From positions 1,739,053-1,803,052 of the forward strand of contig JBNZDD010013599.1 in assembly GCA_050575255.1 (NCBI GenBank): a DNA stretch of 64,000 nt, read 5' to 3'. Shown here one piece after another: positions 9,401 to 32,085 of the stretch (position 1 is its first letter; each line of letters opens with the position of its first letter). This stretch comes from Harriotta raleighana. Taxonomy: Eukaryota. A model generated the notes under the pieces. The model searched no databases. It was not told where the DNA came from and worked only from the letters and a program-made list of their open reading frames with translations. The position numbers and the translations under genes were made by a program.

Positions 9401-12400
9401 TCCAGGTACATATAACCAAGAACGTACAAATCGCATATCTAAATGACGACTTTTCTTGGGGATTTTGTTTCTGCCCTACCTGTGCGTTCTCACTTTTATC
9501 TGGAATTTTCAAATAAAATTCTGTGTTTTCTGAGGAACTTAGCCACCTTGATCAAATCCCCACAGACAGCTGCAAATTTCGCAAGGATAATTGTCCTGTA
9601 TATATTTGCCATGGGGCTCCATTAATGACTCAGATAGGCAAATTGGCTGGCTTGCTTTAATAAGTCCTGCCTGTTATTTTGTCTTCTGAATGTTCGCTGT
9701 ACATAACTATATTTATATAATTATATTCCAATTTTTTTTTTTTTAAATGACATCCTATATACTGAACATTTTTTTTCTGTTTCTATAGCTCTGGGTGCAT
9801 TGAATTTCATAGAATGCTATTGCAATGAACTTTCATTTCCTATAGTTTTACCTTTTCTGATCTGAATGTGTCTCATCTCTGTGATCTGGATAGGTCTGCA
9901 ACCAGAAAATTAAAACTGGTTTGAGAACAATTATTCATTTACAAATCCAGACTGTTTCCAATGCTGTCCTCAGTCTTTTGGACTCACACTGTATGAACTA
10001 AGATAATTGGCTGCCACGTTTCGCCCACAAAACACAGTCAATTCCCTTTGCAGTGTGCTCTGTGAGGCGCTTTGAGATGTCCTGAAGACGTGATAAAGGG
10101 CTGTATCAAAGGCAAGGATTATTATAATTATTATTGTCAGCGAGGCAACCTGAATCAATATGCACATCTCATGTAGTACACCCCCCAAAACGTAAGGCTT
10201 AAGCCCCATAAGTATAATCTGTTGTTTACATCCACACGTGAATGTACCCAAGATTTTAGACTCTCAAAAATAATGTATAAAATTACGCGGTGTGAGCAAA
10301 CGATGTCACAGGTTTCTCTCGGTGTCTGAACCCATCTGGCTGAGTGTGGCAGACAAATCCCTGGGAGCTGATTGTCCAGAAATATTGCTTTCACTTGTAG
10401 CTTTTACTGCTGTTTTACATGGGCTCCGAAGCGTTTAGCTACTTGTGGGAAAATCACAAACGCTGGGGGTGATAGGAAAGCTTGGCACAGCGGGGCTCGC
10501 TCCAGCCATTTGTATTTCTCCCATTAGTATAATCCATTAGAGTTTGAGGCTTTGAGACTTTGAAATGCTCTCACACAGTGTATTCGCATTTACCGATCAG
10601 CCCGTAATGAGATCAAGGAAAGCAGTTACTGTAGCTCCCACTGTTCGAAGCTGATCTCCTGATTGATTGTGTGGTCATTTTCTTTCCAGGTGAAGGTAAT
10701 GGTACGGATCTGTCCTTCCCAAGGAGCGAGCGACACGTCAGAATCCATGTCTTTCTTAAAAGTGGACTCTCGTAAAAAGCAAATAACCCTTTATGACCCC
10801 TCAGTGAGTGGACATGTAAGTCCTGCTCATCGTCGGACAATTGTTGCTGCTCCAAAAATGTTTGCGTTCGATGCTGTGTTCACCCAAGACGCCTCGCAAG
10901 TAAGTNTTTTTTTTCTGTTTCTATAGCTCTGGGTGCATTGAATTTCATAGAATGCTATTGCAATGAACTTTCATTTCCTATAGTTTTACCTTTCCTGATC
11001 TGAATGTGTCTTATCTCTGTGATCTGGATAGGTCTGCAACCAGAAAATTAAAACTGGTTTGAGAACAATTATTCATTTACAAATCCAGACTGTTTCCAAT
11101 GCTGTCCTCAGTCTTTTGGACTCACACTGTATGAACTAAGATAATTGGCTGCCACGTTTCGCCCACAAAACACAGTCAATTCCCTTTGCAGTGTGCTCTG
11201 TGAGGCGCTTTGAGATGTCCTGAAGACGTGATAAAGGGCTGTATCAAAGGCAAGGATTATTATAATTATTATTGTCAGCGAGGCAACCTGAATCAATATG
11301 CACATCTCATGTAGTACACCCCCCAAAACGTAAGGCTTAAGCCCCATAAGTATAATCTGTTGTTTACATCCACACGTGAATGTACCCAAGATTTTAGACT
11401 CTCAAAAATAATGTATAAAATTACGCGGTGTGAGCAAACGATGTCACAGGTTTCTCTCGGTGTCTGAACCCATCTGGCTGAGTGTGGCAGACAAATCCCT
11501 GGGAGCTGATTGTCCAGAAATATTGCTTTCACTTGTAGCTTTTACTGCTGTTTTACATGGGCTCCGAAGCGTTTAGCTACTTGTGGGAAAATCACAAACG
11601 CTGGGGGTGATAGGAAAGCTTGGCACAGCGGGGCTCGCTCCAGCCATTTGTATCTCTCCCATTAGTATAATCCATTAGAGTTTGAGGCTTTGAGACTTTG
11701 AAATGCTCTCACACAGTGTATTCGCATTTACCGATCAGCCCGTAATGAGATCAAGGAAAGCAGTTACTGTAGCTCCCACTGTTCGAAGCTGATCTCCTGA
11801 TTGATTGTGTGGTCATTTTCTTTCCAGGTGAAGGTAATGGTACGGATCTGTCCTTCCCAAGGAGCGAGCGACACGTCAGAATCCATGTCTTTCTTAAAAG
11901 TGGACTCTCGTAAAAAGCAAATAACCCTTTATGACCCCTCAGTGAGTGGACATGTAAGTCCTGCTCATCGTCGGACAATTGTTGCTGCTCCAAAAATGTT
12001 TGCGTTCGATGCTGTGTTCACCCAAGACGCCTCGCAAGTAAGTCCAAACCAAATTGAAATGATTCCTTACCTAACTGTTCGATTCAACGCTGCATTTCTT
12101 TACTTTTTAAATGAACGGAGCACGAATAACAACACTGTACTGACCGGCTAATGTGTTTCATTCGTTCGTTCTAACATTCCTAGGCGGAGGTTTGCTCAGG
12201 AACAGTGGCTGAAGTCATCCAGTCTGTCGTGAATGGTGCAGACGGCTGCATATTTTGCTTTGGTCATGTCAAGCTTGGTGAGCTCCCAAATTCGTTTCAG
12301 TTAATTACATTGTCAGGCTGGTAATTACATGCTGTCAGCGTCTGCAACAATAAACGTAGCGGCGGAGTGAATAGCTTACAATTTCCTTTTCAATTGACTT

Positions 12401-15400: not shown

Positions 15401-18400
15401 ATTTTGTTACAGGAATTGGAAGGCCATGGAGAAATCGGAAGCCGTGTGTGTGTGTGTGTGTGTGTGTGGGTGTGGGTGTGTGTGTGTGTTTTGTTTGAAT
15501 TTAAAAAATCAATATTTTTTTTGGCCTTCACACCAAATTTCTAATCTGGGAGAATTGAAAGTTAATTTATTCTTTATGTAAATTTTTCGCTTTACGTTGA
15601 AGGTATGTGCTGTGGGACTCTGTTCTGCGTACGCTAAACAGCCTTGTTGTTCCCTTCCCTTAAAAGTGACTGTATCACATCCCTAGACAGTGAATATCAG
15701 TACACCGTCCTCTCTAATATGGGAGGCATCAGAAACTTTGCCCGAAACTTTTCTTTAACCAACTCTCACACTTGTACCTTTCCTGAAAGGGATCTAATTG
15801 AGCAGAACCTTCCCTTAGGAGGTAAAATTGGCGGATGGATTCCACAATGAGATGGATTGGGACTTTTCCATATGCTGTAGGGAAGACTTTTGGTGAATAG
15901 GCCAAATGGACTTTGTCTCATTCCAGGCTTATCTTGTGTATAAGCAAAGTTAGCCAATAGATTCTATTTTGAAACAGATGATTTTCTACCTTTCTGGTTT
16001 TGAGGTACAGAAGGTAAATAAAAATATTGCAAGTACTGTACTAGCCTACGTCAAACACTAATGCAGCAACAAGTATAGAGGATTTCAAAATAGCCAGCTG
16101 ATTTTCTAATAGTTACTTCATCTCTGTCCTGTGTAACTGACTGTGTTTGTTTCACTGTTACTCTAGAGATAGCAAGCTTACGATGCTGCTGAGAGAGTCA
16201 CTGGGAAATATCAACTGTCGAACAACCATGATCACTCATATCTCTGGCTCTCCAGCCAACTATGCAGAAACCCTTACCAGCATCCAGCTTGCTGCACGAA
16301 TTCATCGAATGAGAAAGAAAAAATCCAAGGTCAGTGACCTCACTCTCTCTCTCTCTTTCTCTCTCTCTGTGAATTGTTTCTCATCTAAACCCCTTTTCAC
16401 TGTGAATGGCATTTAAAAGCGCCTCCCGTCATCGAGAGTTGTCGCGGCTTAAACTCACAGCTGTGCTATTCGTACGTCAAACGTTAATTTGAGCATTTTA
16501 TCTTTTATCTCAAGTCATTGGCTTTTTTGTTTCTTCTTCTTCTTCTTCGCTCGCGCCAGTATGCCTCGAGCTCCTCTGGAGGGNATGTTTCTTCTTCTTC
16601 TTCGCTCGCGCCAGTATGCCTCGAGCTCCTCTGGAGGGGAGAGTTCGTGCGAAGAAGGTCGGATTCGAAGGCCACCTCACCTGAGACCCTTCCACCCGAG
16701 GACTATAGCTCTTGACCCAGAGCTGCCTGCGTTGGGACTATCCAGTGACCCGGACTACTCCTCAAGCAGTGAACAATCGTGCGACACAGTTATTTACGTT
16801 GGTCCTGACGGAGCCGTGTTGTCTGATCGGGATCTCACCGACAACGAGGGACCCCCAGAGTTCGTGCCTATCATCCCTTCTCTGAACAAGCGATACGACG
16901 GGAAGAGAGGCAGGGAAACTGCCGCCGGCGGGAAGAGCACCGAAAAGGACTATTTCAAATGCAACACGTTTGCGGAATTACAAGAGAGGTTGGAGTGTAT
17001 CGACGGCAGCGAAGAGCCCCTGAAGTTTCCCGCCGAACAGGGACTTTTCCAAAGCAGCACGAGTCCAATTTCACTCCAGGGATGGGTGGAGAGCGGCCTA
17101 GCCACACCGGGCCAGGAGAGACCTCAAGCTGTGGCGGCCGGGCCGGAGAACGGATCCCCGCGTCCGTCTGGGAAACAGCCTTCGAACGAGGCCGTGTCTT
17201 CTCCCAAGCAGAGGCCGGCTGGGCCTCCTCAGGCGCCCGAAGAGCAGGGGAACGTGACCCCCGCGATGATCCCACCCCGGCCCGACACAACCGAACGCTC
17301 AAGCCCGCAAGCCCAAGCCGAGGGGAGCCGAGTGGAATTAAGCAGCGACGACGGCGGAACGGATGGAAGCCACAGGGCAATGGCGGCGGCCTCGCGGGCG
17401 CCCGGATCGAACTGCCCGAGAGCACGAGAGCTCGCCGCGGGCGCGCCCGCCTCCGCCGTGAGGGAGAAATCGTTGCTCTACAGGCGGCCTCTGCCGAGCC
17501 CCGCTCCGCCGCCCCCACAGGCGAAGGAGGACGCGGCGAGGGTCTGTCCGGAACTCGAGGCCGGGTGTGTGGGCCGCACGCCTCCGGTAGGAATGAGCTG
17601 CCAGGTGTCGAGCAAGCGAGAGTGGGTTGCCGCGGGAGCGGCTGCCTCGCGCTGGCGGTCTGGGGCGAGAGACGGAGGCCACTTGAGGTCGGCGTTGAGG
17701 AGCGGCTGCATCGACCGAGACGCGCTGACGGCCACTGTGACCTTGCAGCAGCCCGTGGAGCTGAACGGAGAGGACGAGCTGGTGTTTACAGTGGTCGAGG
17801 AGCTGTCGTTCGGCGACGTCCTGGACAGCGGCCGACCGGCCAGCATCATGAGCTTCAACAGTGATTGTTCGCTTCAGGCTCTGGCCTCGGGTTCGCGGCC
17901 CGTCAGCATTATCAGCAGCATTAACGATGACTTTGAAGCTTATACCTCGCCGGCCGCCCACCCTGGGGTAAACGTTGACATTGGAATGCCACTCGCGGAG
18001 GCTTCCTTTTGCAGCAATAGCAGGCGTTCATCGATCAGCTCCTGGCTCAGCGAAGTAAGCGTTTGCACTCTGGAAAGTGAGTGCGCCCAGTCCTCCGATG
18101 GTTTGGAGGCCCAATCGTGCTGCGGCTGTGGAGCGAGGTCTCTCGGGCCTTTTAACTTGGATTCACCCGACGAGATGCAAGACATGAACGTGTCACTGCC
18201 ACACACTCCGAAGAGCCCACTGGACGACAGTGGATTCTGCCTCCCTGAACTGCAGAGCGAAGGCGTGGGTTCCAGCAAGCTTGCCGTGGACGGACACAGA
18301 AGCTCCGATGCCTTAGGTTCACCCAAAGCCGCTTCGAGCAAATCCCCGGCTGAGGCCTCAGTGATGACAGCCGGCCCAGGGATCTGCGAAGAGGTTCCTC

Positions 18401-21400
18401 TAAGCCACTGTAGTCTTCCCAGCAGCAGGAAAGTAAAACCTACCTCATCCGTGAGCCACAGTTGCAGCACTGTGAACTGCGCCGACGCACAAAGGCAGGA
18501 AAGCAAACTCTCGGACCCTTGGTTGAGGCGGACAAACGGCCAACTGGAACCCAAAGCAGGCGATCAAACTCTTCCAGCTAAAACCTCCCCTAGATCCGGA
18601 AACAGCCTTCAGGCGAAGCCGCAGATGAAGGCGGCCCAGAGCAACAAATCCTCCTCCGCCGTTTCCTGCCCCCACCGCGTGGTGGACGGGTGCGAGATGG
18701 CCACCAGATCCAACGGCGCGAGCGTCAGGAAGTGCGAGGGGCCGGGGCGAGCCTCGCCGCTCAAGAAAGGGAGCGCGGCCGTGGCCACGATGCCGATGAT
18801 GCACACCAGCTCCAACGTGGGCGCCGTCCCCAAGAGCCAACTGGATTACGCCGCCGTCACCGGCAGCTTGAAATCGACCGGCGGGAGGAAAACCTCGCCG
18901 CCCAAGGCCAGCATGCTGCCGAGGCCGAGTGGGACGCCCCCGGCTCCGCCCGTCCGCAAGTCCAGTTTGGATCTGAAAAACAGAGCCGGGCCGCTGGTCG
19001 GCGTCCAGAAAAGCCCGGCTCCCGAGACAGCCACGGCCACCTCGCCCAAGCCAGAGGACGACGTCGACGGCGGACCAAAGGCGGCGGCCGGCCTGGGCGA
19101 AGGCGGAGCGGGCAGAGCGGCAAACGGGAAACCTGACCAGGCCGGGGCTAAAACCGCTCCCAACCCCAAGTCGAAGTTGCCGAAGCCCGAAGCCGCCCAG
19201 CGCTGCGGGAGCCAGGCTTCGCTGGAGAGGTGCGACGGGGTGTGCTCGCTGGCTTCCAAGGGCGGAGCGCTCAAGGAAGGCGGTCACCCGGGCAACGGCA
19301 GCGGCCGGCCCGGCCGATCGGTGCCGCGGCTCGGCGTGTCGCCCTCGGCTCCGGCCGTCTCCTCCCCGGCCGCGCCCGCGGCCCTCGGACCGGCTAAATC
19401 CGTTCAAAGCAAATGTGCTTCCAACCCCAAGCTGGTGGCGGTGGTGTCGGCGGGTAAGTGCCGGAGCCTGTCCACGAGTGGGGCCAAGGCGCTGACCACC
19501 TCGGTGAGGTCGTTGACCCAGGCGATAGGCCGCAGTTCCAGCGTTCCGCCGAACGGCAAAGCCCTGCCTCGCTCGGCCCAGCCGGCGATCGGCAAACCCG
19601 GGAAAGGAACCATCATGGGGACGAAGCAGGCGGTCCGGGCGGCCAACAGCCGCGTGTCCGAGCTGGCCTCCGGGGCCTGCGGCGGGAAAGTGGGCCACTC
19701 GAGAGCATCGGCGGACTCCGACAGTGGCAATGACAGCGGGGTGAACCTCGGCGAGGGGAAGTCCCAGACGCCCGTCTTGCCGTCTCCGTACAGCAAAATC
19801 ACCGCTCCCCGCCGCCCTCAGCGCTACAGCAGCGGGCACGGAAGTGACAACAGCAGCGTCCTCAGCGGAGAGCTGCCCCCGGCCATGGGACGAACCGCCC
19901 TCTTCTACCACAGCGGCGGCAGCAGCGGCTATGAGAGCATGATTCGGGACAGCGAAGCCACCGGCAGCGCTTCCTCAGCTCACGACTCCATGAGCGAAAG
20001 CGGGCTGTCTTCGGCCGGCCGCAACAGGAGTTCGCGATCCCCCAAGAAACGCACGACAGGTTAGTTTCCTCTCCCTGGGAAGGGGACGGCAGACACCCCG
20101 CGGAAATCAGACGCTGGGAAAAACACCAGCAGGAGATCAGGCAGCATCTGTGGAGAGAGGAATATTAGTGGAAGGGAGGGAGGGAGGGAGTCAGTGTTTC
20201 AAAAATTGTTTAAATTAGGGAAAATATACGACAACAAAATTGCTAAATTTGTTTCGCACTTTTCACGTCAGCATTTATGGAAATGAAGTTGGTTTTAGTT
20301 TCTATACATGTCACTTTTGTGTCTTAAATAATAATCCTTGCATTTGATATAGCGCTTTTCACATCTTATCAACGTCCCAAAGCGCTTCACAGAATATACT
20401 GTAATGTTTTTTATCAGGTGGGCAAAGTACAACCAGCTGTAAGACTAAAATTCCCTGTTGTCCACATCAAGCATATCCCCTACCTAACCTCAGATCACAC
20501 TATACCAGGGCAGTTACATCTGAATTGATTCAAAGGTATAGATAGGAGTCCCACGAGTGCAGAGCAGAAGCAAGAACAGATGAGAAATGATGCGTTTGTA
20601 TTTTTTCCCCTAATCTAGTTGAAAGAGAAATGGATTGTTTTGAGTACTGCAAAGTACTGATACCACACTTCACAATGAACCCTGTGCAATGCTTTGAGAT
20701 GTTCTCCCGATGTGCAAGGCGTTATAGTGAATGCAGGATTTTAAAAATGTACAGTATGTATTTACGATGACAGCTTTGAAATGGAGAAGGGGTATTTATT
20801 GTTTTACGACAAAAGAGTCTCTAGCGATCGAGCAACGAGTGAATAATTACGACAATCGTCACGTACGTTTGTTGGATCGCACCTTTCAAAACAACGGCTT
20901 GAGGTATGGAAGGTTCCATTTGTGAAGGAAGTTTCACACAATTTTTTTTAAAAAACAACTAAAAGTAGCGTCTCGATTCTCAGAGAGGGAATACGAGTAA
21001 TCTGACCCCTTTCTTAAAGAGCGCAGTGTAATTTATACAAGCAGACGCATCGGAGGGAGATGATGTTCGAGCAGGAATGCTCTTCCGAAACATTTTCCTG
21101 ATACTTATCAAGTTCACCCTCGCAATTGTGAGGGAGTTTTAAATGTATTTCAGTCACGTCACTTCACTTGATACGTCTCTCCCCGTTTCTAAAGGAAAGG
21201 AATTGGTGAGCAGAACGATCTCCGCACTGGATATGCTTGGTAGTGTGTACTCCCGACAGCAAAAGGGATTTATTATCGCCCTACATTTTAACTTCTTCCA
21301 TGACTTGTATGTTTTGTTTTTAAAAAAAAACGAGGAAACGTTCATTTTGCTGACTCTACTCTGTACCCTGGCTTTGAAGAACCGGGCTGTTGGGTTGAGG

Positions 21401-22495
21401 AACAACTAATGAGACAGTTAAATATTAGTGCTGTTCAGTTGCATGAAGAAATCTCTTGAGTTATTTTAGATTTCCCCACACCTTACAAGCGCATTGCATT
21501 AATACACGGTATGAAGGGAACACTGACACCATTTACAACAGCAATGATCTGTTGGCTGTTGCGATGTGTGTGCGGATGGGAAGGGTGAACAAAGTCTTCA
21601 GAAACACCATCAGGCCAACATGCAAGGGCAAATCGATGGAAATAATGTGTAAAATCGCTTCCTGAATGCCTGCCCGCCGAATCGAAGTCTTATCCTTACC
21701 CCATAGCCGCACAGCTTCACAAAATATGCCGTGGACTCGACAAAAAAGTGTGGCTTTCCTTCTCTTTTTCAACTAAATCATCAAACGCTACTCACGTGCG
21801 TAATAAAATATCTGAATTCTCATGGGGGCAAGGCTGCTGGTAGCAGGCAACTGTAAGATAGATACAAAATCCCATGGGATAACAGTTGATGTATCGTACA
21901 TGTTTTTTTTTCCTGTGTTCAACTGAGCACACGGCGTAGAAACCCCTATCCTCTGATAAGGGTGCGTTCCTGATGCCAGGAAACCGTAACTAAACGCAGT
22001 GTCTTTTATCACATTATAGGACTGCTTCTTAATTGCGTTGCTTTTCAGTAATAAAAATTTACCGATGCTTTTGGACAAGAAGTCTTTACTAACATCTTTT
22101 TTTCCGCTGAGATAACAGTTGCCAGGGATTCGTTTAGGAAGCTGTGATGTCAACTGAGTGAAGCTGTTACATTTATAGTTTGATTAGGGAAGCCATTTGA
22201 TAGCTATTTATTAGATTTCCTGTGGTTGTGTATTAGCACGAATGCATGTCAAGACGCCGCGCACACAAACGATTTATTATTTATACACTTAGCAAACGGA
22301 ACAACAGACGGTGTGGCATTGCTTTTGTGGGCAGAGCGTAGGATGTGAAGAGCTGAATGTGTACGCAAGTCTTGCATGGTCGCATTCCCCTTGAGACTGT
22401 TTGTTGCTCTCTGTGGAACTTATTTCTACAGTCATTCAGGGTTGTGATTTGAGATCTGGCGCGAACTCCAATTGCTTGTTAAAATGAATATGTCA

Positions 22496-22534
<39 letters not shown>

Positions 22535-23380
22535 GGAGGGGGGAGCGAGGTGCAGTTATTAAGAACACTGACCTTTTACCACGGAGATAAGATTTCAAGC
22601 CAGTCAAGCAAGATCGGATGGAAAATCTCTCTCCCAAAGCTATTATTGGGTCCTAAAAGAGGTTTACTGTTTGGTCAGATTCCCTTTGGACACTCCACAT
22701 CACAAACCCATGGTCATAGTTTAGTAAGTAGGTCATTTCATCGAGCAAGGCCAAAGTGCTGGTGAACAGAGCAATTGGAAATGCCAGCTGGATGGGAGTA
22801 CGGGGTGGTTTTGTGAGATTGAAGTGAAGGAATACTGAATCAATTCGGATGTCGGCTGCCTCACTCATGCAACATCTGACTGGGGAGTTTGGCAGATTAC
22901 ATCTCCAACCTTGTTGTCTTCTACCAAAAAGGTTAAGAGGAAATAACCTTTGAAGGCACAATCCCGTGGCTAATTATAGAGGGAGTAACGTANACACAAG
23001 ACGTGAAATTTTAGAAATCTTGCAAGCAGGTGAGAAAGTTATAAATCCATGGTCAGGGTTGTTTGCAAGCTGTTAGGAGTATTATAAGCAATTCACATGA
23101 AGGCATGATAGGTTTATATGCACTTACATTTGAGATGCTTTAACCCAATGAAATATTGGTCTGGGTGGCATATTCTTCAGTAAGGCTTAGAGCTGCTCTT
23201 TCCTTGATGTTCATTTGAAATATCAAGCCAAGATTTTTTTTGGAAAAAAAATCTTTTGAGAGTACAGTAAAAGTAAATGAATCATTTAGGATTGTCACAT
23301 TCTTTCCACATTCTTATACTGTTAAGCTCTGAAGCCCAATATTTTGTCTCTCTCTTTCTGTTTTTCTTCGTACCACACAC

Positions 23381-23411
<31 letters not shown>

Positions 23412-26400
23412 ATACTAGATGGGTGCACAGATGAAGCAACAATATTTGAGACCTTTGCTTTGGACACACTGAATGCAGCTTGCTTTCAGCCAACTCCTTC
23501 TCCCAATTGCCAAAATAGGCTTGACACTGGTCAGGGAGCGCAAGATGTTTTAAATATTTAATTGTACTTGTAAGACCGTATCCGATGCTTTAGCGGACTG
23601 GGTCTTAAAAATCCCAATTAAAAATCAAAGCAATGCTCTGTGCCCTGGAGAAAGATAGTTGGTGGAGATCCCTCAGGCAGAAATTGTTCTGTAGAAGTGG
23701 TCGAGAGTGTGTGCGTGTGTGGTGGAGGGATAGGTTAAGGCCATTCAGTCCCAAACCCATCATGTAAGACAGCTTTAAAAGTGACATTTTAATCACATTT
23801 TCTGCCCTTGTAATACTTCTGACATACTGCATTGTATTTCCCACCCTCACACCCCCAACCAATCCCAACACTCACATGGTTAGGCGAGAGAGAAAGAGAG
23901 AGAGATCAAGAAAAGTTAGTTTCAAACAAAAGCTTAAGGATAAGGCCTAGGGAGAGTCTTATTGTGGGGTAATCAAGGTTAGTCAAGGTCAAAACCATGA
24001 CAAACAGCTTAAGTCACATGTAAATGAATATTGGATGATGACTATATTGAAATGGGTGGTGGAACTGGCTAAAACAAAACCCACCGAAGTTGCTGGGGGA
24101 AACTCAGCAGGTCAGGCAGCATCCATGGAGAAAGGAAAGGAAAGTTGAGTCAACGTTTCAGGCCCACGACCCTTCGTCAGAACTGGCTTGCTGGGCATTG
24201 CTAGCTTGTTGCCCACTGGCTGAAAATAACACATTGAAGCCTTTCACTGTCTTGTTCATTTGAATATTCCCCCCCGTGCTCCTATAATGAATGGTTTCAT
24301 TCAGGTCGACCAGTAAATCAGGTGAAGTATATTCTTTGCAAGAGGATTAATGGTTAAAGTGAACTTAAAAGCCTTGCCTGCATTGAGCTTCTTATCACAC
24401 CTGATAAGTTTAATACTCTATTTAACCTTATTGCAAAACTGTCTGGTGTAATTATAGCTCTGATATATATATATATATACACACACACACACCTCCTCAT
24501 TCATTATTCCAAGCCTTAATGACTTGAAGCTTTGCAACTTTACGGTAGTCAAATTACAATAAAAGAACAGCACGCACTTTGCGTTTTGACTTTCTACTCC
24601 TTCAAGTTCAACGTTACTTCTTGATGGGCTTGTTCACTTTGCTCTCGTGATCCCGTTAACAGAAATCCATTCTGCTCGACACCATCCGCTTATTAAATGT
24701 TCACGGGACAGTTTTGTCTCACGGAATTTAGTTAGGGGCAAGCAGATACTTGGCAATGTTTACCTTTGGTGTTTGGAAAAGCCTTAAACAATGTAATAAG
24801 TGTCCTGAGAAATATCCTCGCACATTTACTGTTGTCTGGACATGTACCCAGAGTTTTTATTGGAAATATTGGGACTTAATTTGCGGTATTTCCCCCCCCC
24901 TTTTGGGTAAATGTTATTTTAATGGGTATTTCATTATGTAACGGTAAATTTAACAAGGGGAGGAAAATCAACGCTTGATAGCACTGGAAGAAGATGAGGG
25001 GATTCTATGAAAAGTAGGGAATCTTTTCATCTTACATAATGCCAGCCCTGGGAAACTTCACTCTGATACGGTCTGGTTCTGGGACAAATAGAAATTTAAN
25101 TAGTAGGGAATCTTTTCATCTTACATAATGCCAGCCCCGGGAAACTTCACTCTGATACGGTCTGGTTCTGGGACAAATAGAAATTTAACTGGATTCCTGA
25201 AGGAGAAATCCTCCAAATGAGACCCGAGTATTAAGTTAACCAAACGTCTAGAGGGGATACTTTCCTTTCAAGCTGCTCAGTCTGAATAAACGTTTTAAGA
25301 CGTTTGGTTCTTGCTTAAGCATTCCATTCCGTGTCTCGTCTTAACATTTGCATTGACTTGAGGAAGCCCTCTGGTTTTAAAATGACATTTTACAATCATG
25401 TGTACCATTTGCCCACTAAAGACTAGAAGTACCTTAAATCCCTTTACGTGTTCCCTATGTTGGGCAGAGTTTAAACATTCCACATTAAGACTGCCATTGG
25501 GTGTACAAGTGTTTCAGTCACACATTTGCTCTGCTGCGCGATTTAATTTAGCATTGCATTTCCCTAAATGCAGTCAACAAAATGATAATCACATCTTCTA
25601 GACGTCTCAACCAGCTTCACAGGATATACCGTAAAGTGAGTTGACTGAATTAACGCGGGCGAAACGCGGCAGCCAAATGCGCACAGCGACAGTGCCCCAC
25701 AAACAGTAGTGGACTGAATTTNACGATTTAATTTAGCATTGCATTTCCCTAAATACAGTCAACATAATGATAATCACATCTTCTAGATGTCTCAACCAGC
25801 TTCACAGGATATACCGTAAAGTGAGTTGACTGAATTAACGCGGGCGAAACGCGGCAGCCAAATGCGCACAGCGACAGTGCCCCACAAACAGTAGTGGACT
25901 GAATTTAACGTTAGGAATTAGATTAACATTAGGAATTGATCAAGCGACATTTCTAACGAGGCACGAGAGTGACTTAAGAGGCAGTAATCTCACCGAGTGC
26001 TTCAGGTGACATCGGAAACCGTGGCAACGAAGCCAGAGTTATTTGTAATTGCTATCGGAATTACTTGACAGTGTCACAACCTTAAGTCACCCCTGTGTCT
26101 CTGCTCTTTTTACAACGTCTACCTGCAAATTTGGGCAGAATTGGGCATTATGGTAGCCTGGTGTACCCTGTGTGATAGCTGCGAGATAGTGCTGTATTGA
26201 AGAAGTGATGATTGTACAGAAATATCGAGCTATTGTTTATTTGATGTCGTGTGTCGTTCCCCCCCCCACACACACACACACCCCCCACACACACAGGCAT
26301 AGTAGCAAGCCATCGATGGATCCGTCCAGAAGTTAAATCATGTCGAGTGGGAAGGAATTTGAATATCCAAAGGGACAAAGTTCTCAATTACCTCTGGCTG

Positions 26401-29400
26401 CTTAAATATCGTGCCCCATTTCCCAGGGGTTGTTGCTTCTTAACAAGATTCATGCCAGTTGAATCTCTGCAATGGATTTTGTTTAGTTCTTGCACACTAA
26501 TGGGGGAGAATACTTGCCTCAAGGTAGCTTTACCGAATTGCAGCACCGTTCAATGACTCGAGATTAATATGTGAGCCACAGTAGCTGGTGTGATTCCATC
26601 GATTCCATTGACTTTTTAAAATTAGCTGCTGAAAGTGGGAATACGATGGCAGCAACGACGACAACGACGACAACAACTTGTATTTCTATTGCTTCCCCTT
26701 CCCGCAGGAGAGCGCGCCTTGAACGTGGAAAGCAAATTTCTTTAGCTGCACTGAAAACCCACGCTTTGAAATGATCCGCAGCGAAGGCAATATGGCCGAC
26801 CAGTCAGCTAATTGCCAGCTGACATGTGGTCTTAAGACTTTTCTCTCTTAAATGTCCTCCCGATGTAAGGAGTTGACAGATGGTCTCCCATGTGCTGCAT
26901 TCAACCCCTACTAGACCTCACACACTGTGACTGCCAGCACCGACTCCCAGTACCCTGGGGTCTGAACGTTTTGGCCCAGTTCCCAGGCTTAGCTAGGTGC
27001 AGCCTTGAAAACACATGTGCCTGACCTACGATATCAGATCTCGTAACCCAAGAAGTGCCACCGGCTAACTCTTTTGTGAGAATTTTAAATCACGATTGCA
27101 ATATGTGATTTTTTGTCTCTCCCCCTCACCCACCCACCCACCCACCCACCCCACCCCCCCACCCCTTAGTGATAGCCTGGGCTTGGTTTGGGTAACGCTC
27201 CAGTAAAACCTGCTGCGGTGGTAAAGAGAAGGTAGAAATTCTGAATAACAAATGTATTCAGGATGTGCTTTTATCAGAGAGAAAGAGCAGATCCGAATGA
27301 CCCAGCTATAAATGAGTGCTGGGATGGCAGGTTTGATTTATCTGCATAGATTTGATCAAAAACTATGGTCAGACTCAGGCTAATTTTTGTCTTCAAAGAA
27401 AGCTCAGTTGGAGGCTTTTGTGTAACGTAGCAAATTGCATTCAAAATATCCAAGCATTTGCTTGACTTCCTAATTTGACAGATTTTAATATGATGTGTGT
27501 CTTCTGACAGTTTCCTGGCCTGCGTTCATGTCATTTTCTATTGTACAATTACTAAATACCTTTTTTCGTTTAGTTCAATGTGCTCTTCACTATTTAAATA
27601 TTCTTTTAAATACGGGTCCTATTTTAGCCTTTCCCACTAACATATATACACACACATATATATATATACATATTACTACATATTTATCTGAATCTAACAC
27701 TGTAGGATAGATACTTTGCAAATTGTACCTTTTGGAACAAAAGGTTTATTCTCTTGAAAGTCTTTTCCATCATACTTGATGTACCATTCACATCTACCTA
27801 CCTACGTTGCCAATGCTACTGAAATCTCCACACATTTTGTAGTGGCTATTGCTTTTTGACAGGTTTATATTTGCTGCTGTTCTGCATAGGGCTGCACAGA
27901 GAGCAAACGCTGTTTCATTGGAGCTTTTTTTTCTATATAAATAATCCTGTTTCTGGTAGTCTCATTGAACTGAAGTGATTTTGGAGACTGATATTACAAC
28001 ATCAGTTGATGGGATTCTGTTCGCTTACTTCCATTAGTTGTTGCAAGTGAAGTCATATGTACTAGATCATTGTATTCCACATAGATTCAAAAACGCTCCA
28101 ATATCTTTTAATATCTCTCTTTTGAGAAGAATGAGTTTCTTTTTTTGCGGATTCTGGTTCAAATTGTTTTTTCAATTTTATTTTTTTTGCATTTTCTGTA
28201 TTCATTTTCTGTAAGAACATATTCACAACTTATTCATTGGACAAGTGAAACACATATAACCATTTCATTACATTAACAGGAAGGACATTAATGCCTGTTT
28301 CTGCAGCTCAGTGCGTATTCGAGTTCGGAATACAAAGTCTTGACGACAGTGCCCAGCAGAACAAATTGATGTCTGGCTGTGTCGAATTTTAGAGACATTT
28401 TACACAGAGCGACTGCTGCGGTAGTTCAATAGTTCAGGGAGCTGCTTTGCGTCACGTCCCCCGCTCGACCCACCTCACCGTCAGTGGATGGATGAGCTGT
28501 CAGCCATTTCATTCTCTCAGGAACTCCATCTCAAAAGGCAACTAGGAGCTGAGAACTTGTGAGGAGACACAGCCTCATTGGGCTGAATGACCATATTCTC
28601 CCATTGCTCTCTCTGAATAAGCCACCGCACACCAAGGTATATGTATAAACATAAGAAGCTCAATGAGGCACTCCCGATACATGAAGCTCGAGGTGCCATT
28701 AACTATAGAGCATTTATTGTCTCAGAACAAACAGTCCTCTTCACGTCTGATAGTCTGAAACTATTTTCCCTTATCGGGCATTTGTGATAGCATTTTCAAA
28801 GCGCCTTTTCCTTCCTCGGATCAAAAGGGAGGGGGGGGGAAAGTGCCAAATAAATTGTGTTGATTTAATAAGGGGTCTTGTGGTTGCCTTTTTTTTCCCC
28901 AGGGATTCAGAGACGGCGGCTGATTCCTGCTCCTTTGCCCGATGCTTCATCCTTGGGACGGAAACCGACCGCGGGAGCCGGCCAGTGGGTGGATCTGCCA
29001 CCACTGCCGGGCACTCTGAAAGAGTCATTTGAAATTAAGGTTTACGAGATTGACGACGTGGAACGGTTGCAGCGACACAGGCAGGAGGAAAACGAGGTCA
29101 GTACATTTCGTACAACAACTTTAGACATCCTGAATTATGGCTTCGGTGAGGAATGGCTGCTTAAATCCGGGCAGAATACCGCGGCGCACAGAAGATTGAC
29201 TGCAATTAAATGACTATAATTATTAATTTTACAATGCATATGTTGAAGTGCCCTTACAAAGAGGAGATAAAAATAATTACTATCCACAATTAATCATGGT
29301 TTGCAGGAGAGATGGTAAAGGAGAAGAAAAATCTATGAATATATTATGAATGAACCTTTGCAGTTTTCGCCCGCTATTATCAAACTTTATAGTCACTCTG

Positions 29401-32085
29401 CACCAGGGTCATTAACTCCTTTGCAGATGAGCAAAAGTATGCTCTTTGGAATTATATTACATCAGCAGTATTATAATCTGATTTGCTTCCAATTAACTAA
29501 GGATTATGCATAATATCCGCTGTCAGCCTTTTAAAGGATTTGTCATTTTAACTTTTGTTTTATCTTTTCCATTGGCATTAATGGTGTAGCAGCCTTTCCA
29601 AGACGTTGACAAGGTAAGAACCTTGGGCCAGATTTATTATCCCCCCACCCTCCCCCTCCCATGAACTCTTTCCCCGCCGAGTTCACGAGAAAGTTTTTGA
29701 ACGCAAAGAGGAAAAATTCGAATCTCTTGTACGGCGGCTGGCTGCGGAGAAGCCGTCTTAAAACAAGGTTCCAATGTCTTCCTCTCCCGATAGGGCTTGT
29801 TGTACTTCAACACAAAGCTGAAGATCCTGCAGAAGCGTCAGCAGAGGCTAAGAGAGTTAAAGGCAAAGCACGAGGTGCTGAAAAAGGAGCTGGAGGATAC
29901 AAAAGACAGGCTGATGATGGATCCTGATAAATGGAATTCCGAGTGTAAGTACATTGGAAACTCTGTCAGCAAACCCGTTGGTTGGGGAGGGCGGCGGTGG
30001 CGGGGGGGGGGGGGGGGAGGGGGGTGGGGGGGAGGGGGGTTGGGGGGGGCGAAAGGCAAGGTTTATTCTTTATATGAATTATAAGCTAATTCCGTTAACT
30101 TTCCTATCAAAATGCAAATAGCCACTTGAGCAACAAGTCTACCATGATCTACTGCCTTGTGATATATATGTAGGTGCAGCAAACCCCAGGGAGGAAAGCT
30201 TAAAAACAAGGTCATGCTGAACTGATCCTCTGGCTTAAAACAAAATCTTGTCCCACTTCAATGGTTCCAGGTGCAAATCTCTTGTCAAAGAAGCATTCAC
30301 CTGCCAACACTTGGGAGCAAACTAGGAATTTATGCATCTAAGGAACAGCCTACTTTGTTAATTCAGTAGGTAGAGGACTTTTCAGAAGAGACGGACTCAT
30401 ATTACTGCCTTAGGAGTTAGTGAGTGAGGATGAAAGTGCTGAATTTTGGGCAAAATTCTTAATTCATTTTGGAAAAGCCCCAAGACTTTTTTTATATACA
30501 AGTCGTGTGTCTGGTTTTGGACAGGACTCTGCCGTAGGTCGTGTAGATAGGATAAGTAGATGTTTTGCTGCTGGATTTGGGATATCCTGGACACTGGAAC
30601 ACTTGCAACCTCTTTGGAGGGAGGGGAGGCCAAAAGGGTTTTTATTTCTTTCGTAATCTAGTGATGGTATAGAGAAAGGAATCCTGAATGTTTGGAGCTA
30701 TCCTGATATGACGTGATCCAAATTTGAACTCTGAAATAAACTTGCCCAGTTTTATCTGCTCAAAAGTTAGCAGATTCCAAGAACAGGATTGAAGAGCGAC
30801 ATTTTCTTTTTTTTAAAATTTAAAATAAAGCGCCTTCTGTCTTCGTGGCTGAAGAATTCTTGCTTCTGATAATGGAAGACCATTGACGTGCATTTCATCA
30901 AGAGAGGATATTATTTAATGGAGCTCCTGTGGCTCAGTGGTTAGAGCACTCGCCTTGCAAGCGTGAGATCTGTGAGACCTGTGTTCGATTCCAGGCATCC
31001 AGGGCGAAACCTTGGGCAAGTTTCCTTACTCCACCCGCCTAATAATAATCCCTCCAAAAAAAAACATCACAATAAAATTGGTCATTTCAATCCATGACTG
31101 TGTGTGGGAGACGCTGCTGTGCGCAATTGGCTCCCGCCTTCTGCCCACAAATATACAGTCAATTCACTTTACAGTATATTCTGTGAAGCGCTTTGGGACG
31201 TCGATAAAATGTGAAAAGCGCAATATCAAATGAAAGGATTATTATTATTATTATTTGGTGGGTTTGGAAGCATTAATATCAGTAACCCCCCCCATTAAGG
31301 GCTAATGTAATAATAATGCAATCGAACTCTCGGGAATATCCTGGAATTATAATTTTCCGTCGGTAAATTGAAAATGCTACTTTTTTCTATAAAAAAAAAG
31401 TGCTTAACATCAGATTGTAAAGCGGCTTTAGTGCTGAAACGTGCTATTCCGGGGAGTGTCCAAAGACTCCGGGGTTTTAACCCCATCATCGTGAAGCAAA
31501 TTCGCAGTCTTGAGCAGTGCAGTGTTTAGGGGCCCAGGTAATTCTCTTCAGGGAGAGAGGGAAAATCGAAAAGTGAGGCATCCTTGGTCACGTTCGGGCA
31601 TCACTTAACAACTGATTACAGAACAGCATCATCAGAGGTCACCTCCTTCTGATCCCAGTGGGGATTGGTACATGTTGTGGAGGACTGATAGAGAGAGAGA
31701 GAAGAGAGAGAACAGATTGATTTTAAAAAAAAGAGAGGTAAAGAAAGAGTCATTGTAAGCAGATGCTTCATAAGTTTACTGAGAAACACAAAAAGAAGTG
31801 GTATTGAATTACCAACCATGATGAAAGTGTCATTTATAGTTGCACTGATGTGTTTATCTAATTCATTTGTACTATTCCCCGCCCCCCCCACCCCCGCCAC
31901 TTATAGTTGAGGTTGACCCAGACCTGGATAAAGACTCCCTGGAGTATTTGGAAGCATTGGAAGAAGTAACGGAGGAGCTCGAGCAACGTGTCAACCTATG
32001 CAAGTCAAGGATCATGATGGTGACTTGTTTTGACATTGGTGTGATCATTGATGTACACGATGGACCCAGGGAAGTCCAGGTTTAA
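3313..32085 (+). CDS. KIF26A: Kinesin-like protein KIF26A (kinesin-11 family), 5'-partial spliced CDS: join(3313..3496,11828..12037,12184..12277,14101..14363,14669..14852,15152..15329,16167..16329,16615..20059,28903..29096,[29590/29593..29613],29794..29944,31907..32085)
   Basis: All exons have AG/GT boundaries and compatible phases. The motor domain has P-loop GHVKL|GKS, a degenerate switch I (EERRNSH), a degenerate switch II (DLGSCE) and [46 protein letters not shown] and the C-terminus GPREVQV match my recollection of KIF26A rather than KIF26B. Confidence 0.93.
3729..3860 (-). mobile_element. SINE 3' half
   Basis: tcaaagcgcctcacagaatatactgtacagtgaattgactgtata...cagccaattgcacacagc matches the family body. 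Confidence 0.8.
4681..4979 (-). mobile_element. Near full-length copy of the same tRNA-derived SINE
   Basis: Reverse complement of the head (ctaaccactgagc, atcgaatcc), body (cagccaattgcgcacagc) and tail (aatccttgca). Confidence 0.88.
8205..8365 (-). mobile_element. SINE 3' half
   Basis: cttcacagaatacactgtaaagtgaattgactgta...caattgcgcacagc. Confidence 0.8.
10005..10135 (+). mobile_element. SINE 3' half (repeated at 11143..11273 by the N-flanked duplication)
   Basis: aattggctgccacgtttcgcccacaaaacacagtcaattc...gcaaggattattataattattatt. Confidence 0.8.
10690..10899 (+). other. KIF26A: First copy of the KIF26A VKVMVRI exon, within a duplication ending at N10906 (probable assembly duplicate of 11828..12037)
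   Basis: By eye the 210-nt exon is identical to 11828..12037. Its donor GTAAGT is cut off immediately by N10906. Confidence 0.8.
11828..12037 (+). CDS. KIF26A: KIF26A coding exon, start of motor domain (VKVMVRICP...[13 protein letters not shown])
   Basis: ttccag|GTG AAG...TCG CAA|gtaagt. 210 nt, phase 0-0, with the kinesin beta1 strand and FxFD motifs. Confidence 0.93.
12184..12277 (+). CDS. KIF26A: KIF26A coding exon ([32 protein letters not shown]), first half of the P-loop
   Basis: cctag|GCG GAG...AAG CTT G|gtgagc. 94 nt, not in the ORF track. Confidence 0.93.
14101..14363 (+). CDS. KIF26A: KIF26A coding exon (GKSYTMIG...EDPICGTQ)
   Basis: ttccag|GC AAA TCG TAC...ACT CAG|gtactt. Completes the GKS of the P-loop. 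Confidence 0.94.
14669..14852 (+). CDS. KIF26A: KIF26A coding exon ([16 protein letters not shown]...[23 protein letters not shown]), switch I region
   Basis: acccag|CTT CAG AAT...GGG GGA A|gtacgt. Confidence 0.94.
15152..15329 (+). CDS. KIF26A: KIF26A coding exon ([18 protein letters not shown]...G10...KHIPYK), switch II region
   Basis: ttgcag|TG TCG GGC...CCA TAC AA|gtaagt. Confidence 0.94.
15444..15489. repeat. (TG)n microsatellite
   Basis: Directly visible, with two GG interruptions. Confidence 0.9.
16167..16329 (+). CDS. KIF26A: KIF26A coding exon ([13 protein letters not shown]...[13 protein letters not shown]), end of motor domain
   Basis: ctctag|A GAT AGC AAG...TCC AAG|gtcagt. Confidence 0.94.
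16615..20059 (+). CDS. KIF26A: KIF26A giant exon (3445 nt), Ser/Pro/Ala/Gly-rich tail with conserved blocks
   Basis: cgccag|TAT GCC TCG...ACG ACA G|gttagt. Open frame throughout, with KIF26 blocks [70 protein letters not shown] and [10 protein letters not shown]. The acceptor is also duplicated at 16560, before N16584. Confidence 0.94.
20110..20201 (-). mobile_element. Second, more degraded Penelope-like terminal fragment
   Basis: gctgggaaaaacaccagcagg..tcaggcagcatctgtggagaga...gagtcagtgtttca aligns by eye with 24092-24160 and stops before the CTGANGA core. Confidence 0.55.
20327..20407 (-). mobile_element. SINE 3' terminal fragment, nearly identical to the copy at 60051
   Basis: aatccttgcatttgatatagcgcttttcacatcttatcaacgtcccaaagcgcttcacagaatatactgtaatgt. 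Confidence 0.8.
22498..22531. repeat. (TG)n microsatellite
   Basis: Directly visible. Confidence 0.9.
24085..24186 (-). mobile_element. Penelope-like element terminal-repeat fragment containing a minimal hammerhead core
   Basis: Minus strand: agttCTGACGAagggtcgtgggcctGAAAcgttgactc...tctccatggatgctgcctgacctgctgagtttcccccagca. A related fragment lies at 20110-20201. Confidence 0.7.
25585..25905 (-). mobile_element. SINE body fragment, present twice across N25722
   Basis: cttcacaggatataccgtaaagtgagttgactg...cagccaaatgcgcacagc occurs twice. Confidence 0.75.
28903..29096 (+). CDS. KIF26A: KIF26A coding exon ([14 protein letters not shown]...[23 protein letters not shown])
   Basis: ttccccag|GG ATT CAG...AAC GAG|gtcagt. 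Contains the KIF26 motifs QWVDLPPL and [15 protein letters not shown]. Confidence 0.93.
29590..29613 (+). CDS. KIF26A: Candidate KIF26A micro-exon, (Q)PFQDVDK, 24 or 21 nt via a tandem TAG/CAG acceptor
   Basis: Upstream T-rich tract, then tgtag|cag|CCT TTC CAA GAC GTT GAC AAG|gtaaga. Strong donor, phase 0-0, no stop, lies between two phase-0 exon boundaries. Confidence 0.7.
29794..29944 (+). CDS. KIF26A: KIF26A coding exon ([50 protein letters not shown]), C-terminal coiled coil
   Basis: cgatag|GGC TTG TTG...GAG T|gtaagt. Confidence 0.93.
30920..31255 (+). mobile_element. Full-length tRNA-derived SINE with (ATT)n tail
   Basis: A box TGGCTCAGTGG 30930-30940, B box GTTCGATTC 30983-30991, body GCTGTGCGCAATTGGCT...TTCTGTGAAGCGCTTTGGGACGTC and an (ATT)n end. 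The same body recurs more than 12 times in the window. Confidence 0.9.
31907..32085 (+). CDS. KIF26A: KIF26A last coding exon ([19 protein letters not shown]...[23 protein letters not shown])
   Basis: ttatag|TT GAG GTT...CAG GTT TAA. The split codon T+TT gives Phe. Confidence 0.93.

What the first reader, a model, noticed from the sequence alone, without database searches (positions are those of the whole stretch)
29545..29620. Hidden 21/24-nt micro-exon with a NAGNAG acceptor just before the KIF26A C-terminal coiled coil
Seen: a branch-like tttaac and a T-rich tract (~29547-29570) set back about 20 nt from a tandem TAG|CAG acceptor, then CCTTTCCAAGACGTTGACAAG and the consensus donor AAG|GTAAGA. 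Both lengths keep the frame between the phase-0 boundaries at 29096 and 29794, giving three possible isoforms (skip, +PFQDVDK, +QPFQDVDK). Established: 3-27 nt frame-preserving micro-exons are typically neural and SRRM3/4-regulated, and gene predictors often miss them. Inference: this is a neural isoform switch next to the coiled coil. Caveat: I see no canonical UGC motif between the tract and the AG.
Basis: partly seen in the sequence, partly recalled or inferred. Interest (0 to 1): 0.7.

Follow-up and report, generated by a model that had tools for sequence, protein, structure and literature searches.

The report
Ancient, already annotated KIF26A micro-exon
This 24-letter piece of a chimaera-like KIF26A gene matches a tiny exon already annotated in sharks, bony fish, birds and mammals, and because its mouse counterpart is catalogued as included in all tissues it is likely an ordinary, mostly included part of the protein rather than a brain-specific switch.

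Summary
The anatomy is confirmed: branch-like TTTAAC, set-back U-tract, TAG|CAG, 24/21-nt frame-preserving exon and AAG|GTAAGA between phase-0 KIF26A exons. It is not hidden. The RefSeq Callorhinchus milii protein already carries QPFQDVDK, and the peptide occurs from sharks to mammals. Of 47 junction-spanning cartilaginous-fish records, 44 have +8 aa, 3 skip and none has +7. All three predicted isoforms are annotated in lungfish and sterlet, but the tandem acceptor is not universal. The neural reading is not supported. The mouse orthologue is in the constitutively included cluster I1 of MicroExonator, kif26 is absent from 708 zebrafish neural exons, and no UGC lies between branch point and AG here or near the AG in two teleost loci. 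No RNA run of this animal was available. One oddity remains: 384 nt of upstream intron are about 99% identical in two related animals, more conserved than the coding exon. The scan's earlier notes held nothing on this exon.

The parts
28903..29096 (+). KIF26A coding exon ending ...[18 protein letters not shown], phase-0 donor GTCAGT at 29097
   Evidence: 97% identical to C. milii KIF26A
29188..29571 (+). 384-nt AT-rich intronic block, about 99% identical in two related animals; role unknown (splicing control region or enhancer)
   Evidence: 3 substitutions + 1 insertion in organism A, 5 + 1 in organism B
29547..29552 (+). branch-point-like TTTAAC (putative branch A 29551)
   Evidence: sequence; no listed difference in organisms A and B; use as branch point is inferred
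29552..29570 (+). polypyrimidine tract set back 16 nt from the tandem acceptor; no UGC in the gap
29587..29592 (+). tandem acceptor TAG|CAG (CAG|CAG in organisms A and B)
29590..29613 (+). micro-exon, 24-nt form QPFQDVDK (21-nt form 29593-29613, PFQDVDK)
   Evidence: same peptide in RefSeq C. milii XP_007886578.1; one synonymous change in organism A
29614..29619 (+). consensus donor GTAAGA
   Evidence: no listed difference in organism A
29794..29944 (+). next coding exon, [10 protein letters not shown]..., the long C-terminal helix
31907..32085 (+). terminal coding exon ending ...HDGPREVQV*, the KIF26A-type end

Best explanation
This is the chimaera copy of an ancient, already annotated KIF26A micro-exon that is likely included in most transcripts and most tissues, and is predicted to supply the end of a linker and the first turn of the long C-terminal helix. 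Shown: the splice signals, the frame, the peptide's presence in annotated orthologues, and constitutive inclusion of the mouse orthologue in a published catalogue. Inferred: a consensus donor and a clean U-tract let the core spliceosome recognise it without SRRM3/4; the 24-nt form is the main one in cartilaginous fish; occasional skipping and plus-or-minus-Q wobble at the tandem AG give minor isoforms; the exon's Asp caps the helix of the module that the literature links to FAK binding.
For: C. milii RefSeq protein has [16 protein letters not shown]. Of 66 cartilaginous-fish records, 47 span the junction: 44 have +8, 3 skip, 0 have +7. In the first search 61 of 120 hits include it, 38 skip and 21 are other. 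Mouse row chr12_+_112179479_112179500 (21 nt, translating to the PSQDAEK of Mus musculus KIF26A) is type 'Included', cluster I1, with no differential flag for brain, heart, muscle or adrenal (cluster definition). No kif26 among 708 zebrafish neural exons, with kif1b etc. found as control. No UGC between branch and AG in the window; none within 30 nt of the AG in two teleost loci. AlphaFold model of a sturgeon orthologue (52-row alignment): exon = residues 69-76, coil to 73, helix 74-116, block pLDDT 83.
Against: There is no RNA evidence from this animal or any chimaera. Skip forms are annotated beside included forms in many species (Heptranchias, Hypanus, Scyliorhinus torazame, lungfish, sterlet, Mus caroli, macaques), so the exon is alternative to some degree. 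The 384-nt conserved upstream block and the set-back tract with a 38-41 nt branch-to-AG distance lean towards a regulated exon (neural median 45 versus 34 nt, PMC12871342). The mouse intron is much shorter (131 nt upstream, from the row), so mouse regulation need not hold in chimaeras. The mouse row shows a total coverage of only 401 and I could not see its per-sample PSI. About a quarter of SRRM3/4 micro-exons lack UGC.
Confidence: 0.62

Rival explanations
1. Neural SRRM3/4-dependent switch: skipped by default and included in neurons.
For: Length 21-24 nt, frame-preserving, set-back tract. Long conserved upstream intron. Skip isoforms annotated in many species. UGC is present in only 74-79% of SRRM3/4 micro-exons and is not strictly required. 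KIF26A acts in neurons (PMC10585591).
Against: Mouse orthologue constitutively included. Not among 708 zebrafish neural exons. No UGC. The included form dominates annotations: 44 of 47 cartilaginous-fish records.
Confidence: 0.15
2. Regulated, but not by the neural micro-exon programme: the conserved 384-nt intronic block controls partial skipping by stage or in a non-neural tissue of cartilaginous fish.
For: The block lies directly upstream of the exon and conservation ends about 15 nt after the donor. Core versus the downstream intron P=3e-7, versus the coding exon P=1e-4 in organism A. 3 of 47 cartilaginous-fish records skip.
Against: No significant similarity of the block to two teleost introns in most settings (L006 core: 44 and 72 of 200 shuffles reach the score; L007 core: 131 and 11 of 200). 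No RBFOX (UGCAUG) or QKI (ACUAAC) motif (motifs recalled). No RNA structure signal (z +1.44) and no Rfam match.
Confidence: 0.15
3. The conserved intronic block is a transcriptional enhancer that merely shares the intron with a plain micro-exon. This concerns the block only and is compatible with the best explanation.
For: 32% GC; 19 TAAT/ATTA cores versus 10.4 expected, reached by 7 of 1000 base shuffles; single copy in the genome; length typical of vertebrate conserved non-coding elements (recalled).
Against: Its edge coincides with the micro-exon donor. No chromatin or reporter data. The motif count was chosen after seeing the sequence.
Confidence: 0.4
4. Chance splice-like sequence, not an exon.
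For: About one strict donor cassette is expected per shuffled window. No transcript from this species was seen.
Against: The identical peptide is in C. milii RefSeq and orthologous peptides span jawed vertebrates. The mouse orthologue has junction coverage. Two teleost genomic loci hold it with AG and GT in register.
Confidence: 0.02

Closest known systems
KIF26A micro-exon in RefSeq models (C. milii XP_007886578.1; lungfish XP_043930270/272/273; sterlet XP_058843457/458/459)
   Same: Same position, phase and peptide; C. milii identical at all 8 residues; lungfish and sterlet show +8, +7 and skip.
   Different: The window has TAG|CAG where two relatives have CAG|CAG. Sharks and rays start with E and show only +8.
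Mouse Kif26a 21-nt micro-exon chr12_+_112179479_112179500 (MicroExonator, PMC7821500, cluster I1)
   Same: Orthologous by translation (PSQDAEK) and position; in frame; annotated.
   Different: 21 nt; F replaced by S; upstream intron 131 nt versus 493 nt here. Tissue data exist for mouse and not for this animal.
Neural SRRM3/4-regulated micro-exons (for example the kif1b 18-nt exon DreEX0041536)
   Same: 3-27 nt, frame-preserving, set-back tract, conserved upstream intron.
   Different: No UGC; orthologue constitutive in mouse; gene absent from the zebrafish neural list.
KIF26B (paralogue in the same genome, L004)
   Same: Same flanking exons and phase-0 intron (about 1166-2471 in L004).
   Different: A motif scan found no micro-exon-like peptide in that intron, which holds two similar repeat-like blocks.

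Membership tests
Micro-exon (3-27 nt cassette) | 3-27 nt between AG and GT inside an intron of a real gene | tested here: met
Micro-exon (3-27 nt cassette) | Frame-preserving and conserved in orthologues | tested here: met
Micro-exon (3-27 nt cassette) | Junction reads in this organism | not testable with these tools
   no run on record as RNA was offered
Neural SRRM3/4 micro-exon | UGC between branch point and AG | tested here: not met
   not obligatory
Neural SRRM3/4 micro-exon | Extended branch-to-AG distance with set-back tract | tested here: inconclusive
   38-41 nt, between the medians of 34 and 45 nt; the branch point is only predicted by eye
Neural SRRM3/4 micro-exon | Neural-enriched inclusion in orthologues | tested here: not met
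   mouse cluster I1; absent from 708 zebrafish neural exons, although zebrafish coverage of this exon is unknown
Neural SRRM3/4 micro-exon | Dependence on SRRM3/4 | not testable with these tools
   needs knock-out or minigene data
Alternative NAGNAG acceptor | Tandem AGs 3 nt apart | tested here: met
   kept as CAGCAG in two relatives and in teleost locus L007
Alternative NAGNAG acceptor | Both AGs used in one species | tested here: inconclusive
   plus and minus Q models in lungfish, sterlet, paddlefish, swordfish and Pogona; 0 of 47 cartilaginous-fish records show +7
KIF26A orthologue | Best hits are KIF26A; a separate KIF26B locus exists in the genome | tested here: met

The most novel reading that the evidence does not exclude
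In cartilaginous fish the exon is a regulated switch run by a UGC-independent, roughly 400-nt ultraconserved intronic control region that toggles the N-cap of KIF26A's FAK-binding helix. That control was later lost: the exon became constitutive in mouse, shrank to 6 aa in monkeys and is missing from the 4 of 4 ape records seen, so human KIF26A would lack an element kept for over 400 million years elsewhere.
Probability: 0.15. Interest if true: 0.55.

Novelty: already known. Interest (0 to 1): 0.2.

Why it matters
Little as it stands: the exon is in public annotations and in a mouse micro-exon catalogue. It is a useful counter-example to reading every conserved 3-27 nt exon as neural. What is not in the papers searched is any function for it. 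It sits at the predicted start of the helical module linked to FAK binding in a gene whose loss causes brain malformations (PMC10585591), it has drifted in placental mammals (PFQ to PSQ, 6 aa in monkeys), and it has an unusually conserved upstream intron in chimaera-like animals. If that block controls inclusion, it would be a tractable case of UGC-independent micro-exon regulation.

Tried and rejected
RNA evidence: no RNA holder listed. The five listed runs are contigs that carry the intron, so they served only for conservation; four were laid in each. Exact degenerate pattern in metagenome contigs: 0 hits; the protein-based scan then gave 4 loci, of which 2 (L006, L007) were usable and 2 were not examined further. 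Deep conservation of the intronic block with teleosts: not significant in most of 12 settings; the best were 6 of 200 shuffles, with no correction. RNA structure and Rfam: nothing. A poison exon inside the block: candidate AG/GT pairs exist, but donors are weak and no protein record ends there, apart from intron read-throughs. Truncated shark isoforms turned out to use an alternative last exon further upstream. Pfam on the two flanking exons and the large exon: nothing above cut-off. Single-sequence AlphaFold model: low confidence, pLDDT 54, not used. Literature: 0 papers for KIF26A+microexon, KIF26B+microexon and kif26+micro-exon; KIF26A+srrm4 gave 2 unrelated listings. Supplement searches for kif26 gave 0 in PMC12626420 (file 13 not searched), PMC13281805, PMC9303857 (files 13-18 not searched) and PMC4317164 (file 1 not searched); none of these four had a positive control, so they carry little weight. 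Six guessed codon strings in the zebrafish brain table found nothing and are uninformative. The paper asked for was not held.

Full report
Observation. The flanking exons end and start in phase 0 at 29096 and 29794, so 24 nt add QPFQDVDK and 21 nt add PFQDVDK. It is the only cassette of this strictness with a strong tract on the + strand of the window; 30 resampled windows gave 0.03 such sites on average (thresholds set after the fact). The stretch is single-copy in the genome.

The gene. The upstream exon is 97% identical to Callorhinchus milii KIF26A, its best hit, so the animal is most likely a chimaera. A separate KIF26B locus lies on another contig; a motif scan of its corresponding intron found no such peptide.

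The exon is annotated, not hidden. The RefSeq C. milii protein XP_007886578.1 reads [18 protein letters not shown]. Among 120 first hits, 61 include the peptide, 38 skip it and 21 are read-throughs or otherwise unclassifiable. Among 66 cartilaginous-fish records, 47 span the junction: 44 carry 8 residues, 3 skip and none carries 7; many of these are several isoforms of one species. It is present in gar, sturgeon, teleosts, coelacanth, lungfish, amphibians, reptiles, birds, monotremes and marsupials. In placental mammals it reads PSQDVEK or similar, and in monkeys it is 6 aa (PSQDTK, PSQDGK, PSQEVK). The 4 ape records seen (human, two orang-utan, gibbon) all skip it, but only 15 of that cluster's 136 members were listed, so loss in apes is a lead only. 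These are mostly predicted RefSeq models; that they usually rest on RNA-seq alignments is recalled, and I did not see their support.

The tandem acceptor. But sharks and rays begin the exon with E and show only +8, and teleost locus L006 codes the Q as CAA, leaving no second AG, while L007 has CAGCAG. The NAGNAG therefore comes and goes with the first codon; I infer wobble rather than a conserved switch. Two related animals have CAG|CAG where the window has TAG|CAG.

Tissue specificity. This could not be tested in this animal. The best outside evidence is the MicroExonator mouse table (PMC7821500; I saw passages, methods section 21 and supplement search rows; one supplement was too large to read). 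Row chr12_+_112179479_112179500 is a 21-nt exon that translates to PSQDAEK, the Mus musculus KIF26A insert. It is 'Annotated', cluster type 'Included' (I1), with all brain, heart, muscle and adrenal difference flags FALSE. The paper defines such clusters as consistently included across all samples. The row's total coverage is 401 and per-sample PSI was not visible. In zebrafish, kif26 does not occur in any of 12 supplement files of PMC12626424, including the table of 708 neural exons (passages), whereas five other kif rows are found; that table needs coverage in five tissues, so absence could also reflect coverage. There is no UGC between branch and AG in the window, and none within 30 nt of the AG in either teleost locus (one TGC at -38 in L006). 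Against over-reading this: UGC is found in only 74-79% of SRRM3/4 micro-exons and is not strictly needed (10.1101/2024.09.17.613571, abstract and section 10), and the 38-41 nt branch-to-AG distance lies between the neural and other medians of 45 and 34 nt (PMC12871342, passages).

The conserved intron. Contigs from two other organisms cover the locus. In 29188-29571 (384 nt) organism A differs at 3 bases plus one insertion and organism B at 5 plus one; neither differs in 29429-29571 (from the listed differences; differences near contig-piece ends are not listed, at most one unaccounted for in B). The upstream coding exon has 13 differences in 194 nt in A; the downstream intron has at least 13 substitutions in its first 105 nt and 8 gaps in A, and is replaced in B. 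Fisher P values are 1e-4 and 3e-7. The block shows no folding signal, no Rfam match and no convincing similarity to teleost introns. It is rich in TAAT/ATTA (19 versus 10.4; 7 of 1000 shuffles). It could be a splicing control region or an enhancer; this is the one unexplained feature and the main evidence that regulation in chimaeras may differ from mouse.

What the peptide does. In an AlphaFold model of a sturgeon orthologue built on 52 rows (mean pLDDT 66.5), the exon is residues 69-76; a low-confidence coil runs to 73 and a confident helix runs 74-116. The exon's Asp thus sits where a helix cap would be, and its last three residues start the helix. [quoted passage not shown] That skipping would shorten the linker and weaken the cap is inference.

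In print. Searches for KIF26A+microexon, KIF26B+microexon and kif26+micro-exon found no paper; KIF26A+alternative splicing+exon gave 19 listings, none on this exon by title or abstract start. Subscription journals and VastDB were not searchable, and unread supplements may list the exon. The scan's own notes had nothing near this place and one note on a different gene, which I did not use.

Verdict. A real, ancient and already annotated micro-exon; the neural-switch reading is unlikely (about 0.15). Novelty: already known. Interest 0.2, mainly for the conserved intronic block and the drift of the exon in primates.

Noticed in passing
shark and ray proteins P0376, P0380, P0398, P0412, P0416, P0424 and others; expected in window 20065-28902: Many elasmobranch RefSeq models end in a conserved alternative last exon of about 70 aa (starting after ...KKRT) that removes the whole C-terminal helical module. 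tblastn and an HMM found no copy in this window.
   Followed up: partly
primate proteins: The micro-exon is 6 aa in monkeys and absent from the 4 ape records seen; possible decay or loss in apes including human.
   Followed up: partly
rodent proteins P0229, P0230, P0195, P0156: A second plus-or-minus-Q wobble at the acceptor of the next exon (…EK-Q-GPV) in rodents.
   Followed up: no
window 29097-29120: The first 24 intron bases read through as VSTFRTTT; bird read-through models give VSTYFTTT, hinting that the 5' intron flank is conserved from chimaeras to birds.
   Followed up: no
window 29300, 29357, 29420: Three TTTGCAG acceptor-like words inside the conserved block (0.06 expected from the window frequency); the first is interrupted by an inserted C in both relatives. 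Chosen after the fact.
   Followed up: partly
run X1, 729-nt contig against window 29241-29261 and 29580-29609: A second, lower-depth contig matches two short colinear pieces including the micro-exon (1 and 4 mismatches). Chance, another animal or a stray copy; unexplained.
   Followed up: no
window single Ns at 10906, 16584, 25100, 25722, 32939, 47136, 47862, 53097, 61387, 61498, 61756: 11 of 16 single-N joints have duplicated flanks (about 50 to 1137 nt), typical of unmerged contig overlaps. The one at 16584 duplicates the start of the large KIF26A exon and is likely an assembly artefact.
   Followed up: partly
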